Assembly (NCBI RefSeq): GCF_009914755.1
Contig: NC_060929.1
Length of the DNA: 64,000 nucleotides
Source of the DNA: the human T2T-CHM13v2.0 reference genome, Homo sapiens
Strand: one strand, 5' to 3'
The translations under genes and the position numbers were made by a program. Below are positions 55,411 to 59,237 of the stretch, one piece after another. Below the pieces are notes generated by a model. That model was not told the origin of the DNA and ran no database searches. It worked only from the letters and a program-made list of their open reading frames with translations. The stretch's first letter is position 1. Every line of letters begins with the position of its first letter.

Positions 55411-56469
55411 ATGACAGGATCAAATTCACACATAACAATATTAACTTTAAATATAAATGGACTAAATTCTGCAATTAAAAGACACAGACTGGCAAGTTGG
55501 ATAAAGAGTCAAGACCCATCAGTGTGCTGTATTCAGGAAACCCATCTCACGTGCAGAGACACACATAGGCTCAAAATAAAAGGATGGAGGAAGATCTACC
55601 AAGCCAATGGAAAACAAAAAAAGGCAGGGGTTGCAATCCTAGTCTCTGATAAAACAGACTTTAAACCAACAAAGATCAAAAGAGACAAAGAAGGCCATTA
55701 CATAATGGTAAAGGGATCAATTCAACAAGAGGAGCTAACTATCCTAAATATTTATGCACCCAATACAGGAGCACCCAGATTCATAAAGCAAGTCCTCAGT
55801 GACCTACAAAGAGACTTAGACTCCCACACATTAATAATGGGAGACTTTAACACCCCACTGTCAACATTAGACAGATCAACGAGACAGAAAGTCAACAAGG
55901 ATACCCAGGAATTGAACTCAGCTCTGCACCAAGCAGACCTAATAGACATCTACAGAACTCTCCACCCCAAATCAACAGAGTATACATTTTTTTCAGCACC
56001 ACACCACACCTATTCCAAAATTGACCACATAGTTGGAAGTAAAGCTCTCCTCAGCAAATGTAAAAGAACAGAAATTATAACAAACTATCTCTCAGACCAC
56101 AGTGCAATCAAACTAGAACTCAGGATTAAGAATCTCACTCAAAGCCGCTCAACTCCATGGAAACTGAACAACCTGCTCCTGAATGACTACTGGGTACATA
56201 ACGAAATGAAGGCAGAAATAAAGATGTTCTTTGAAACCAACGAGAACAAAGACACCACATACCAGAATCTCTGGGATGCATTCAAAGCAGTGTGTAGAGG
56301 GAAATTTATAGCACTAAATGCCTACAAGAGAAAGCAGGAAAGATCCAAAATTGACACCCTAACATCACAATTAAAAGAACTAGAAAAGCAAGAGCAAACA
56401 CATTCAAAAGCTAGCAGAAGGCAAGAAATAACTAAAATCAGAGCAGAACTGAAGGACACAGAGACATGA
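55411..56469 (+). CDS. LINE-1 ORF2 N-terminal half (APE-like endonuclease plus linker), 352 aa, premature stop
   Basis: [14 protein letters not shown] start; N14, E43, Y115, D145, D205 and H230 motifs present. Ends ELKDTET* versus the recalled consensus ELKEIETQ. Confidence 0.9.
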
Positions 56470-59237
56470 AAACCCTTCAAAAAATCAATGAATCCAGGAG
56501 CTGGTTTTTTGAAAGGATCAACAAAATTGATAGACCGCTAGCAAGACTAATAAAGAAAAAAAGAGAGAAGAATCAAATAGACACAATAAAAAATGATAAA
56601 GGGGATATCACCACCGATCCCACAGAAATACAAACTACCATCAGAGAATACTACAAACACCTCTACGCAAATAAACTAGAAAATCTAGAAGAAATGGATA
56701 CATTCCTCGACACATACTCTCTCCCAAGACTAAACCAGGAAGAAGTTGAATCTCTGAATAGACCAATAACAGGCTCTGAAATTGTGGCAATAATCAATAG
56801 TTTACCAACCAAAAAGAGTCCAGGACCAGATGGATTCACAGCCGAATTCTACCAGAGGTACAAGGAGGAGCTGGTACCATTCCTTCTGAAACTATTCCAA
56901 TCAATAGAAAAAGAGGGAATCCTCCCTAACTCATTTTATGAGGCCAGCATCATTCTGATACCAAAGCCGGGCAGAGACACAACCAAAAAAGAGAATTTTA
57001 GACCAATATCCTTGATGAACATTGATGCAAAAATCCTCAATAAAATACTGGCAAACCGAATCCAGCAGCACATCAAAAAGCTTATCCACCATGATCAAGT
57101 GGGCTTCATCCCTGGGATGCAAGGCTGGTTCAATATACGCAAATCAATAAATGTAATCCAGCATATAAACAGAGCCAAAGACAAAAACCACATGATTATC
57201 TCAATAGATGCAGAAAAAGCCTTTGACAAAATTCAACAACCCTTCATGCTAAAAACTCTCAATAAATTAGGTATTGATGGGACGTATTTCAAAATAATAA
57301 GAGCTATCTATGACAAACCCACAGCCAATATCATACTGAATGGGCAAAAACTGGAAGCATTCCCTTTGAAAACTGGCACAAGACAGGGATGCCCTCTCTC
57401 ACCGCTCCTATTCAACATAGTGTTGGAAGTTCTGGCCAGGGCAATCAGGCAGGAGAAGGAAATAAAGGGTATTCAATTAGGAAAAGAGGAAGTCAAATTG
57501 TCCCTGTTTGCAGACGACATGATTGTTTATCTAGAAAACCCCATCGTCTCAGCCCAAAATCTCCTTAAGCTGATAAGCAACTTCAGCAAAGTCTCAGGAT
57601 ACAAAATCAATGTGCAAAAATCACAAGCATTCTTATACACCAACAACAGACAAACAGAGAGCCAAATCATGAGTGAACTCCCATTCACAATTGCTTCAAA
57701 GAGAATAAAATACCTAGGAATCCAACTTACAAGGGATGTGAAGGACCTCTTCAAGGAGAACTACAAACCACTGCTCAAGGAAATAAAAGAGGACACAAAC
57801 AAATGGAAGAACATTCCATGCTCATGGGTAGGAAGAATCAATATCGTGAAAATGGCCATACTGCCCAAGGTAATTTACAGATTCAATGCCATCCCCATCA
57901 AGCTACCAATGACTTTCTTCACAGAATTGGAAAAAACTACTTTAAAGTTCATATGGAACCAAAAAAGAGCCCGCATCGCCAAGTCAATCCTAAGCCAAAA
58001 GAACAAAGCTGGAGGCATCACACTACCTGACTTCAAACTATACTACAAGGCTACAGTAACCAAAACAGCATGGTACTGGTACCAAAACAGAGATATAGAT
58101 CAATGGAACAGAACAGAGCCCTCAGAAATAATGCCACATATCTACAACTATCTGATCTTTGACAAACCTGAGAAAAACAAGCAATGGGGAAAGGATTCCC
58201 TATTTAATAAATGGTGCTGGGAAAACTGGCTAGCCATATGTAGAAAGCTGAAACTGGATCCCTTCCTTACACCTTATACAAAAATCAATTCAAGATGGAT
58301 TAAAGATTTAAACGTTAGACCTAAAACCATAAAAACCCTAGAAGAAAACCTAGGCATTACCATTCAGGACATAGGCGTGGGCAAGGACTTCATGTCCAAA
58401 ACACCAAAAGTAATGGCAACAAAAGCCAAAATTGACAAATGGGATCTAATTAAACTCAAGAGCTTCTGCACAGCAAAAGAAACTACCATCAGAGTGAACA
58501 GGCAACCTACAAAATGGGAGAAAATTTTCACAACCTACTCATCTGACAAAGGGCTAATATCCAGAATCTACAATGAACTCAAACAAATTTACAAGAAAAA
58601 AACAAACAACCCCATCAAAAAGTGGGCGAAGGACATGAACAGACACTTCTCAAAAGAAGACATTTATGTAGCCAAAAAACACATGAAGAAATGCTCATCA
58701 TCACTGGCCATCAGAGAAATGCAAATCAAAACCACTATGAGATATCATCTCACACCAGTTAGAATGGCAATCATTAAAAAGTCAGGAAACAACAGGTGCT
58801 GGAGAGGATGTGGAGAAATAGGAACACTTTTACACTGTTGGTGGGACTGTAAACTAGTTCAACCATTGTGGAAGTCAGTGTGGCGATTCCTCAGGGATCT
58901 AGAACTAGAAATACCATTTGACCCAGCCATCCCATTACTGGGTATATACCCAAAGGACTATAAATCATGCTGCTATAAAGACACATGCACACGTATGTTT
59001 ATTGCGGCACTATTCACAATAGCAAAGACTTGGAACCAACCCACATGTCCAACAATGATAGACTGGATTAAGAAAATGTGGCACATATACACCATGGAAT
59101 ACTATGCAGCCATAAAAAATGATGAGTTCATGTCCTTTGTAGGGACATGGATGAAATTGGAAACCATCATTCTCAGTAAACTATCGCAAGAACAAAAAAC
59201 CAAACACCGCATATTCTCACTCATAGGTGGGAATTGA
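56466..59237 (+). CDS. LINE-1 ORF2 C-terminal half (PIP box, reverse transcriptase, CCHC), 923 aa, starting at an ATG that overlaps the upstream stop
   Basis: Uninterrupted frame with [17 protein letters not shown]...HCWWDC and normal end FSLIGGN. Whether it is translated is unknown. Confidence 0.75.

What the first reader, a model, noticed from the sequence alone, without database searches (positions are those of the whole stretch)
55411..59237. ORF2 split cleanly into endonuclease and RT proteins joined by an AUGA stop-start overlap
Seen: ORF2a (352 aa) stops at the TGA of ATGA 56466-56469 and ORF2b (923 aa) starts at the ATG of the same four bases. 352+923 = 1275, the normal ORF2p length, so no residue is lost and Q353 becomes Met. 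EN catalytic motifs, PIP box, FADD and CCHC are intact. Established: AUGA overlaps mediate termination-reinitiation in caliciviruses (with upstream cis elements), and L1 ORF2 itself is made by unconventional reinitiation after ORF1. Inference: this locus could act as a tricistronic L1, producing a free nickase and possibly an EN-less RT able to make cDNA or complement in trans, although an annotation would call it ORF2-dead. It may be accidental rather than selected.
Basis: partly seen in the sequence, partly recalled or inferred. Interest (0 to 1): 0.8.

Follow-up and report, generated by a model that had tools for sequence, protein, structure and literature searches.

The report
Young L1 broken by neighbour's patch
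A recently inserted human L1 jumping gene has its second gene cut in two by a tiny 12-base patch that is also present in a decayed L1 8 kb away, so the neat stop-start overlap looks like a copying accident rather than a designed three-gene arrangement.

Summary
A 6,076-bp L1 (53418-59493) with 13-bp target-site duplications has an intact ORF1. Its ORF2 reads as 352 aa plus 923 aa, sharing ATGA at 56466-56469.

The break is a frameshift, not a simple codon change. Compared with 25 close relatives, the ORF2 region differs at 19 columns. Five of these lie within 12 bp (56457-56468): four substitutions and an A-run one base shorter.

All five are also found in an older, decayed L1 in the same orientation 8.1 kb upstream (48359-48370). 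The 36-mer spanning them occurs only at these two places in the 3.1-Gb genome. The best explanation is a short (12-67 bp) non-allelic gene conversion between neighbouring L1s, probably from old to young. The AUGA is then a by-product.

Nothing supports termination-reinitiation:
- no UGGGA within 193 nt upstream;
- no unusual RNA structure;
- no progeny carrying the patch.

Published work shows that engineered fragments split at 347/348 can jointly drive weak Alu retrotransposition. A 349-1275 fragment alone makes no cDNA. The split is therefore compatible with function in principle, but only if ORF2b is made, which is untested. Interest is low to moderate.

The parts
53405..53417 (+). 5' target-site duplication GAAAGATGCTTAC of the young L1
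   Evidence: The same 13-mer occurs only at 53405 and 59494 in the window.
53418..59493 (+). Young full-length L1, 6,076 bp: 5'UTR 53418-54330, ORF1, 63-nt spacer 55348-55410, split ORF2, 3'UTR and A-rich tail to 59493
   Evidence: It is 99.1-99.4% identical over ORF2 to 25 other copies. Outside the patch it shows 20 differences from their majority state in 5,526 nt compared.
54331..55347 (+). ORF1, 338 aa, uninterrupted
   Evidence: Pfam finds Transposase_22, Tnp_22_dsRBD and Tnp_22_trimer.
55411..56469 (+). ORF2a, 352 aa. It holds the endonuclease plus residues 240-352 of the tower/Cryptic region and ends at TGA 56467-56469.
   Evidence: Pfam finds Exo_endo_phos at residues 11-230. Domain limits are from PMC10830420 (passages).
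56457..56468 (+). The patch: four substitutions (56457, 56459, 56467, 56468) and an A-run one base shorter. Together they shift the frame and create ATGA.
   Evidence: Five of the 19 differences from 25 relatives fall in these 12 bp. The four substitutions are shared by 0 of 25 relatives and the shorter run by 1 of 25. All five are shared with the old L1. In a permutation, clustering this tight arose in 6 of 2,000,000 trials.
56437..56503 (+). Largest possible conversion tract: the 67 bp in which the young and old L1 are identical
   Evidence: The flanking mismatches are at 56436 and 56504. At 56436 the young L1 matches its 3 aligned relatives and the old L1 matches 4 of its 5.
56466..56469 (+). 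ATGA stop-start overlap
   Evidence: The context is AGAGACATGA. The ORF2b frame is open for only 10 codons upstream, from TAA 56433-56435.
56466..59237 (+). ORF2b, 923 aa. It holds the end of the tower helices, the tower lock, the PIP helix, RT, wrist and the C-terminal CCHC domain.
   Evidence: Pfam finds RVT_1. It aligns to ORF2p 354-1275 in 8uw3_A and 8sxt_A.
59494..59506 (+). 3' target-site duplication
45328..51347 (+). Older, decayed L1 in the same orientation, about 8.1 kb upstream. It is the probable donor of the patch.
   Evidence: One search found 17 direct-repeat families at 83-95% identity with spacing 8,089-8,217. The ORF2-equivalent region has 54-70 stops per frame. Its best relatives elsewhere are only 93-95% identical. 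The limits are taken from the repeat mask in the hub's note.
48353..48388 (+). The same 36-mer junction, with patch sites 48359-48370, inside the old L1
   Evidence: The 36-mer occurs at exactly 2 places in the genome: window 48353-48388 and 56451-56486.

Best explanation
This is a young, full-length human L1 that inserted by ordinary target-primed reverse transcription. It was later disabled by one small lesion in ORF2.

The lesion is a 12-bp patch: four substitutions and an A-run one base shorter. The patch is identical to the sequence at the same place in an older, decayed L1 lying 8.1 kb upstream in the same orientation. The most likely origin is a short non-allelic gene conversion between the two neighbours, with a tract of 12 to 67 bp. 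It most probably went from the old copy to the young one.

The AUGA stop-start overlap and the 'clean' 352 + 923 split are accidental by-products of that patch. If the locus is transcribed, the expected products are ORF1p and a truncated ORF2a (endonuclease plus most of the Cryptic/tower base). ORF2b would be made at most in traces.

Shown here: the anatomy, the clustering of differences, the sharing with the neighbour, its uniqueness in the genome, and the absence of reinitiation signals. Inferred: conversion as the mechanism, its direction, and the low yield of ORF2b.
For: 1. **Anatomy.** The ORFs, ATGA, target-site duplications and domains are all in place.
2. **Clustering.** The ORF2 region differs from the majority state of 25 relatives (at least 99% identical) at 19 columns. 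Five of these lie in 12 bp. The four substitutions are shared by 0 of 25 relatives and the shorter run by 1 of 25. All five are shared with the old L1. In a permutation, clustering this tight arose in 6 of 2,000,000 trials.
3. **Uniqueness.** The 36-mer across the patch occurs at 2 places in 3.1 Gb, both in this window. The 21-mer has 2 exact places and 11 more with one mismatch.
4. **Absent from both families.** Eight other copies aligned over 336 columns (5 relatives of the old L1, 3 of the young) all lack the four substitutions.
5. **Tract limits.** At 56436 the young L1 matches its 3 aligned relatives and the old L1 matches 4 of its 5. The old L1 has private bases from 56504, so the exchange covers at most 67 bp.
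6. **Direction.** In those 336 columns the old L1 has 12 states seen in none of the 8 other copies: 4 in the patch and 8 elsewhere. The young L1 has 4, all in the patch. The same four substitutions, at normal length, occur in two other L1 copies.
7. **No sign of function.** There is no TGGGA within 193 nt upstream. Fold z-scores are +1.18, -0.50 and -0.10. No other locus carries the patch or both of two private 3' variants (my comparison of the two lists).
8. **Literature.** Conversion between LINE copies is documented, with tracts down to 13 bp (Tremblay 2000, as quoted in PMC1920257, passage). ORF2 is itself translated at about one molecule per RNA (PMC4091050, passages).
Against: - Direction is not shown. 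Inside the 67-bp tract the two L1 families do not differ apart from the patch, so no diagnostic site tells donor from recipient.
- The 67-bp identical run is only the fifth longest between the two copies. Run length alone does not prove an exchange; the case rests on the shared derived states.
- Only 39 of 7,406 candidate copies were scored when relatives were chosen, so the 25 relatives are a sample.
- Only one haploid assembly was examined. A polishing error cannot be excluded from the sequence alone.
- Translation of ORF2b was not tested. L1 ORF2 is itself made by an unconventional reinitiation whose rules are not understood (PMC5972666, PMC4176336, passages). The absence of calicivirus-type signals therefore does not exclude some restart.
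- Engineered halves split five residues away do cooperate (PMC4889948).
Confidence: 0.8

Rival explanations
1. The locus works as a tricistronic L1: ribosomes terminate at the TGA of AUGA and restart at its AUG. That would give a free EN-containing protein and an RT-containing protein which act separately or together.
For: - The overlap is real, and both halves are open with intact motifs.
- The AUG has A at -3.
- Engineered EN347 plus 348-RTCys fragments reconstitute low Alu retrotransposition without gap or overlap (PMC4889948, section 33).
- The Cryptic region works in trans (PMC13103738, abstract and section 21).
- Stop-start coupling exists in another non-LTR element, SART1 (PMC5972666, passage).
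Against: - The patch is a copy of, or was copied into, a dead neighbour, so it was not shaped here.
- There is no UGGGA within 193 nt upstream, and no significant structure upstream or downstream.
- Reinitiation after a 352-codon ORF is expected to be very rare (PMC5972666). It would come on top of an ORF2 start that already yields about one protein per RNA (PMC4091050).
- The 349-1275 fragment alone gave no LEAP product (PMC13103738, section 21).
- The EN347 fragment was not cytotoxic (PMC4889948, section 33).
- No progeny carrying the patch was found.
Confidence: 0.04
2. Gene conversion did take place between the two neighbours, but from the young L1 to the old one. The cluster of changes would have arisen first in the young element or in its source.
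For: No diagnostic site inside the tract fixes the direction. The A-run is an indel hotspot in young copies too: 3 of the 25 relatives have it one base longer or shorter.
Against: - Outside the patch the young L1 has only 20 differences in 5,526 nt. It has none in the 336 columns around the patch, where the old L1 has 8. Four substitutions within 12 bp are far more likely to have built up in the old copy.
- The same four substitutions are seen in other L1 copies.
Confidence: 0.12
3. This is an assembly or polishing artefact. Reads from one L1 were used to correct the other, so the patch exists in only one of the two copies in the real genome.
For: The two copies are identical for 67 bp around the patch. 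Only one assembly was examined.
Against: Overall the copies differ at 372 alignment columns over the ORF2 region. Reads longer than about 70 bp would therefore be placed unambiguously. On either side of the patch each copy keeps bases that the other lacks. There was no direct test here.
Confidence: 0.04
4. The same five changes arose independently in the two L1s, with no exchange between them.
For: Each change recurs singly in other copies. The A-run is one base shorter in 298 of 6,724 copies that match the flanks.
Against: The full combination occurs nowhere else in the genome, yet it occurs twice within 8.1 kb. The young family has no CpG at the site that could favour the change to T-G.
Confidence: 0.005

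Closest known systems
Retrotranspositionally-incompetent full-length L1 loci that encode a truncated, EN-containing ORF2 protein (Kines et al. 2014, PMC4176336; passages read)
   Same: Both are full-length L1s with an intact ORF1 and an ORF2 that ends prematurely after an intact endonuclease domain. Such fragments can be expressed.
   Different: That screen took loci with in-frame premature stops and excluded frameshifts. It found 92 human loci. Here the stop comes from a frameshift, so stop-codon readthrough, their explanation for residual Alu mobilisation, cannot restore ORF2p. The ORF2a frame hits another stop 23 codons later.
Bipartile Alu retrotransposition: engineered ORF2p halves EN347 and 348-RTCys (Christian et al. 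2016, PMC4889948, sections 28 and 33; Shareef et al. 2026, PMC13103738, abstract and section 21)
   Same: Both break inside the tower/Cryptic region, with no gap or overlap between an EN-Cryptic half and a Z-RT-CTD half. The natural break is at 352/353 and the engineered one at 347/348.
   Different: The engineered halves come from separate, codon-optimised, strongly expressed and partly Gal4-tagged plasmids. Here the second half would have to be translated as a third cistron of a native L1 RNA. Residues 349, 350 and 353 are also changed. The activity of the natural pair is untested.
Termination-reinitiation at overlapping stop-start signals: calicivirus and influenza B TURBS, and SART1 UAAUG (review PMC5972666, passages)
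   Same: Both have a stop codon and a start codon sharing bases at the junction of two long ORFs.
   Different: The cis elements that make those systems work are not seen here. There is no UGGGA motif near the restart site; the nearest are 194 and 628 nt upstream. There is also no unusual structure upstream or downstream.
Ectopic gene conversion between LINE copies (Tremblay, Jasin and Chartrand 2000, known here only through the passage in PMC1920257, which also reports an intrachromosomal conversion inside an L1)
   Same: A short tract of one L1 copy is replaced by the sequence of another copy. Reported tracts go down to 13 bp.
   Different: That evidence comes from induced breaks in mouse cells. 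Here it is a germline event between two neighbouring human copies, inferred from sequence alone, and it carries a disabling lesion into a young element.

Membership tests
Human LINE-1 (young, full-length copy) | ORF1 with the L1 trimerisation, RRM-like and C-terminal domains | tested here: met
   Pfam finds Tnp_22_trimer, Transposase_22 and Tnp_22_dsRBD with E 4e-32 to 7e-65. ORF1 is 338 aa and uninterrupted.
Human LINE-1 (young, full-length copy) | ORF2 with an APE-type endonuclease, a reverse transcriptase and a C-terminal Cys-rich domain in one 1275-codon frame | tested here: not met
   All the domains are present, and the sequence matches intact relatives except at 10 residues. However, the frame is broken at codon 353, giving 352 + 923 aa.
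Human LINE-1 (young, full-length copy) | Insertion hallmarks: full 5' end, A-rich tail and target-site duplication | tested here: met
   The element starts GGGGGGAGGAGCCAAGATGG at 53418. The A-rich tail runs to 59493. The 13-bp duplication lies at 53405 and 59494.
TURBS-type termination-reinitiation | Overlapping or closely spaced stop and restart codons | tested here: met
   ATGA lies at 56466-56469.
TURBS-type termination-reinitiation | UGGGA motif 1, complementary to 18S rRNA helix 26, close upstream of the restart site | tested here: not met
   The only TGGGA motifs in ORF2a lie 194 and 628 nt upstream. The motif definition is from PMC5972666 (passage). The usual distance of under about 100 nt is recalled.
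TURBS-type termination-reinitiation | Structured element (motifs 2 and 2*) presenting motif 1; for SART1, a structure downstream | tested here: not met
   The 93 nt upstream fold at -4.3 kcal/mol, z +1.18. The 120 nt downstream give z -0.50. The 141 nt across the junction give z -0.10.
TURBS-type termination-reinitiation | The downstream protein is made in dependence on upstream termination | not testable with these tools
   This needs a reporter or tagged-protein experiment.
L1 loci encoding truncated EN-containing ORF2p (Kines 2014 class) | Full length, intact ORF1, and premature termination of ORF2 after an intact EN domain | tested here: met
   The stop arises by frameshift, which that paper's screen excluded (PMC4176336, passage).
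Bipartite ORF2p (works like BAR) | The two fragments together cover ORF2p without a gap, with the break between the Cryptic base and the Z domain | tested here: met
   352 + 923 = 1275. ORF2b aligns to 354-1275. The published working break is 347/348 (PMC4889948, section 33).
Bipartite ORF2p (works like BAR) | Both fragments are expressed in the same cell and mobilise a reporter | not testable with these tools
   No expression or activity data exist for this locus. Literature searches for the locus found nothing relevant.
Non-allelic gene conversion | A cluster of derived states shared by two paralogous copies and absent from the relatives of both | tested here: met
Non-allelic gene conversion | The flanks of the tract keep each copy's own states | tested here: met
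   The family-typical site is 56436, and the old copy has private bases from 56504.
Non-allelic gene conversion | Donor and recipient identified from an outgroup or from unconverted alleles | not testable with these tools
   No ape genomes or other human haplotypes are held here. The HPRC L1 site matrix (PMC13192797 supplements) could not be read.

The most novel reading that the evidence does not exclude
The natural allele is a working bipartite L1. When the locus is transcribed, a small share of ribosomes restarts at the AUG of AUGA. ORF2a (EN plus Cryptic base) and ORF2b (Z-RT-CTD) then reassemble, as the engineered 347/348 halves do, and mobilise Alu or L1 RNA at a low rate. An element scored as ORF2-dead would then still contribute to retrotransposition.
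Probability: 0.03. Interest if true: 0.65.

Novelty: new member of a known kind. Interest (0 to 1): 0.3.

Why it matters
**As a candidate new translation arrangement,** the finding does not hold up. The stop-start overlap was copied between neighbours, lacks the known cis signals, and has left no descendants.

**What remains is modest but useful.**
1. It is a clear, datable example of a fossil L1 and a young, otherwise nearly intact L1 exchanging a 12-67 bp tract that disables the young copy. Local conversion is thus one route by which potentially active L1s are lost, or in the reverse case altered.
2. The allele may be polymorphic. If other human haplotypes carry this insertion without the patch, the site would hold an L1 with both reading frames open.
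3. The natural break lies five residues from the engineered break used in bipartile Alu retrotransposition. This allele is therefore a ready-made natural test of whether split ORF2 loci matter in vivo.
4. The A-run at codon 353-354 is a frameshift hotspot in L1 ORF2. That is relevant for anyone counting 'intact' L1s.

Tried and rejected
- **TURBS motif.** TGGGA occurs in ORF2a only 194 and 628 nt upstream of the restart. Rejected as a signal.
- **RNA structure.** Three folds around the junction did not differ from shuffled sequence.
- **Ribosomal -1 frameshifting to restore full-length ORF2p.** The two frames overlap for only 10 codons, 56436-56465. By eye I saw no X XXY YYZ heptamer in that stretch. 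Not pursued further.
- **Stop-codon readthrough.** It cannot help, because the frames differ and the ORF2a frame stops again after 23 codons.
- **Direction of conversion from family-diagnostic sites.** The two families do not differ inside the tract, so the test was uninformative.
- **Earlier idea about a CGA codon.** I thought the old L1's family carried CGA at codon 353, with CpG decay giving TGA. Its five nearest relatives do not have that codon, so I dropped the idea for this copy. It does fit other, older copies listed.
- **Search for progeny through single private variants.** The two 32-33-mers recur at 64 and 32 places, so single variants are not specific. Only their co-occurrence was informative.
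- **Relatives of the old L1 as whole loci.** Five 331-bp pieces were fetched instead.
- **Allele state in other human haplotypes.** The supplements of PMC13192797 were too large to read.
- **Papers not held.** Alisch 2006 and Tremblay 2000 are known here only through passages in papers that cite them.
- **Literature searches.** I searched for a tricistronic or split-ORF2 L1, for this locus, and for gene conversion with preTa. None found a description of this locus or arrangement. One search was a term-length slip.
- **Not run.** Structure or complex prediction of the two halves. Published experiments on near-identical fragments already answer whether they can associate, so a pass would not have changed my odds.
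Full report
**1. What is there**

The window holds a full-length L1 on the + strand at 53418-59493 (6,076 bp). It starts with the usual G-rich 5' end and finishes in an A-rich tail. A perfect 13-bp target-site duplication, GAAAGATGCTTAC, flanks it at 53405-53417 and 59494-59506.

ORF1 (54331-55347, 338 aa) is uninterrupted and carries the three L1 ORF1 Pfam domains. After the 63-nt spacer, ORF2 reads as two ORFs. ORF2a is 55411-56469 (352 aa; Exo_endo_phos at residues 11-230). 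ORF2b is 56466-59237 (923 aa; RVT_1). They share ATGA at 56466-56469. ORF2b residues 2-923 align to residues 354-1275 of solved human ORF2p chains 8uw3_A and 8sxt_A.

**2.

ORF2b lies in a different frame from ORF2a (56466-55411 = 1055, remainder 2). I fetched the 25 copies in the same genome that are 99.1-99.4% identical over the ORF2 region. These came, where only 39 of 7,406 candidates were scored, and were aligned. Of the 25 relatives, 22 are 3,828 nt long here, two are 3,829 and one is 3,827; the window is 3,827.

The window differs from the majority state of the 25 at 19 alignment columns. Five of them lie within 12 bp:
- substitutions at 56457, 56459, 56467 and 56468, shared by 0 of 25 relatives;
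- an A-run one base shorter, shared by 1 of 25.

The other 14 differences are scattered. In a permutation that placed 19 differences at random in 3,827 positions, five fell within 12 bp in 6 of 2,000,000 trials.

Outside ORF2 the element differs from the relatives at 4 of 1,486 positions (part of the 5'UTR, ORF1 and the spacer) and at 2 of 213 positions in the 3'UTR. Without the patch that makes 20 differences in 5,526 nt, so this is a young copy.

Eighteen of the 25 relatives have an uninterrupted 1275-codon ORF2. Against those 18, the window's protein differs at ten positions: 249, 349, 350, 353, 437, 1001, 1035, 1041, 1087 and 1212. Three of these (349, 350, 353) come from the patch. None is a catalytic EN, PIP, FADD or CCHC residue. 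The names and places of those motifs are recalled, not taken from a call.

The 3'UTR carries ACG at the trinucleotide that, as I recall, marks the pre-Ta group of human-specific L1s. I ran no classifier.

**3. The same patch sits in the neighbouring L1**

A second L1 lies about 8.1 kb upstream in the same orientation, at about 45328-51347. One search found 17 direct-repeat families between the two, at 83-95% identity. This copy is old and decayed. Its ORF2-equivalent region has 54-70 stops per frame. Its best matches elsewhere in the genome are only 93-95% identical.

It nevertheless carries exactly the same junction. The 36-mer across the patch occurs at two places in the 3.1-Gb assembly, window 48353-48388 and 56451-56486. 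It occurs nowhere else on either strand. A 21-mer search allowing one mismatch found these two exact places and 11 inexact ones. All five patch states of the young L1 are shared with the old one.

I aligned 336 columns around the junction with five relatives of the old L1 and three of the young. None of the eight has the four substitutions. One relative of the old L1 independently has the shorter A-run.

The two neighbours are identical from 56437 to 56503 (67 bp). At 56436 the young L1 matches its 3 aligned relatives and the old L1 matches 4 of its 5. From 56504 the old L1 has private bases that the young L1 lacks.

**4. How it most likely arose**

Two diverged paralogues 8.1 kb apart share a cluster of derived states. 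That cluster is absent from the relatives of both and from the rest of the genome. It is bounded on both sides by sites where each keeps its own sequence. This is the signature of a short non-allelic gene conversion, here with a tract of 12 to 67 bp.

Conversion between LINE copies, with tracts as small as 13 bp, has been seen after induced breaks in mouse cells. That is Tremblay et al. 2000, which I know only through the passage in PMC1920257; the paper itself is not held.

The direction is inferred, not shown, because inside the tract the two families do not differ. Two observations favour old to young:
- In the 336 columns the old copy has 12 states seen in none of the eight other copies, 8 of them outside the patch. 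The young copy has 4, all inside the patch.
- The same four substitutions, at normal run length, occur in two other L1 copies.

I put old to young at roughly 7 to 1 over the reverse.

The 67-bp identical run is only the fifth longest between the two copies. The argument therefore rests on the shared derived states, not on run length. An assembly or polishing artefact cannot be excluded from the sequence alone. It is unlikely, because the copies differ at 372 alignment columns over the ORF2 region.

**5. The site is accident-prone**

Among L1 copies that match the flanks of the site, 6,426 have the normal spacing and 298 have a spacing one base shorter. That is 298 of 6,724. Among the 25 close relatives, two have the A-run one base longer and one has it one base shorter. 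The 26-mer containing ATGA plus the shortened run occurs at six places in the genome, including the two here. An ATGA at this codon is thus a recurrent product of decay.

**6. Does it work as a tricistronic L1?**

*Sequence tests*
- The only TGGGA motifs in ORF2a lie 194 and 628 nt upstream of the restart. The TURBS motif sits near the stop-restart site in caliciviruses (PMC5972666, passages). The usual distance of under about 100 nt is my recollection.
- The 93 nt upstream, the 120 nt downstream and the 141 nt across the junction fold no better than shuffled sequence. The z-scores are +1.18, -0.50 and -0.10.
- The ORF2b frame is open for only 10 codons upstream of its ATG. The ORF2a frame stops again 23 codons past the TGA. 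Neither readthrough nor a casual frameshift gives full-length protein.
- No other place in this genome carries the patch.
- No other place carries both of two private 3' variants of this element. This is my comparison of the lists of 64 and 32 places. There is therefore no sign of progeny, although one haploid genome is a small sample.

*Literature*
- The review describes reinitiation after long ORFs as presumably a very rare event without special elements (PMC5972666, passage).
- ORF2 itself is thought to be made at about one molecule per L1 RNA (PMC4091050, abstract and passages).
- A Z-RT-CTD fragment of residues 349-1275 alone gave no LEAP cDNA product. It was rescued by the Cryptic fragment 240-380 in trans (PMC13103738, section 21).
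- The EN347 fragment was not cytotoxic in HeLa, unlike EN239 and EN264 (PMC4889948, section 33).

These results speak against a harmful free nickase and against a self-sufficient EN-less RT.

- EN347 and 348-RTCys, expressed from separate plasmids, together supported low Alu retrotransposition without gap or overlap (PMC4889948, sections 28 and 33).
[quoted passage not shown] That part is dispensable for RT activity in vitro. The paper notes that tower-base fragments may bind the rest in trans (PMC10830420, passages).
- The natural break at 352/353 is therefore structurally tolerable. The open question is only whether ORF2b is ever made from this RNA, and that cannot be tested here.

**7. Comparison with known kinds**

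By membership, the locus is a young human L1 whose ORF2 fails the single-frame criterion. It works like the published class of retrotranspositionally-incompetent L1 loci that can still encode ORF1p and an EN-containing truncated ORF2p (PMC4176336, passages). That screen excluded frameshifts, and its readthrough explanation does not apply here.

It resembles the engineered bipartite ORF2p system in where it is cut. It resembles viral stop-start systems only in the four-base overlap. The defining cis elements were tested and not found.

My searches found no paper describing this locus or a natural split-ORF2 or tricistronic L1. The searches cover only the held library.

**8. Verdict**

The functional reading is not supported by the sequence and is partly contradicted by published fragment experiments.

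The added result is that the disabling patch is shared with a fossil neighbour, probably through a 12-67 bp conversion. That is a tidy example of a known process rather than a new kind of system.

Interest is 0.3. Novelty: new member of a known kind.

Noticed in passing
window 56467-56472, and the same site in loci L025, L026 and L028: The A-run at ORF2 codons 353-354 is a frameshift hotspot. Two of the 25 closest relatives have it one base longer and one has it one base shorter. Genome-wide, 298 of 6,724 flank-matched copies have the spacing one base shorter.
   Followed up: partly
G000:C1:95819904-95819931 and G000:C15:36605664-36605691 (not fetched): Two other L1 copies carry the same four substitutions as the patch, but with an A-run of normal length, which gives an in-frame TGA. 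I did not examine whether they are related to the old L1 here or are independent recurrences.
   Followed up: no
window 54833, 56870, 57614: At these three single sites the young L1 departs from 23-24 of 25 relatives and matches the old neighbour. The identical runs around two of them are short, at 16 and 21 bp. They could be retained ancestral states, chance, or further very short conversions.
   Followed up: partly
window 53196-53396: The RefSeq 'silencer' feature given in the hub's note ends 9 bp before the 5' target-site duplication of the young L1. I did not examine whether it bears on the element's promoter.
   Followed up: no
window 45328-51347 and 53418-59493: Two roughly 6-kb L1s lie in the same orientation, 8.1 kb apart start to start, and are 83-95% identical. 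Besides conversion, they are a possible substrate for non-allelic recombination that would delete or duplicate the 8.1-kb unit.
   Followed up: no
locus L004 (G000:C1:180222226-180226053, minus strand): This closest relative (99.4% identical) shows no stop codon within the 1,276 codons compared, so its ORF2 runs past the usual end.
   Followed up: no
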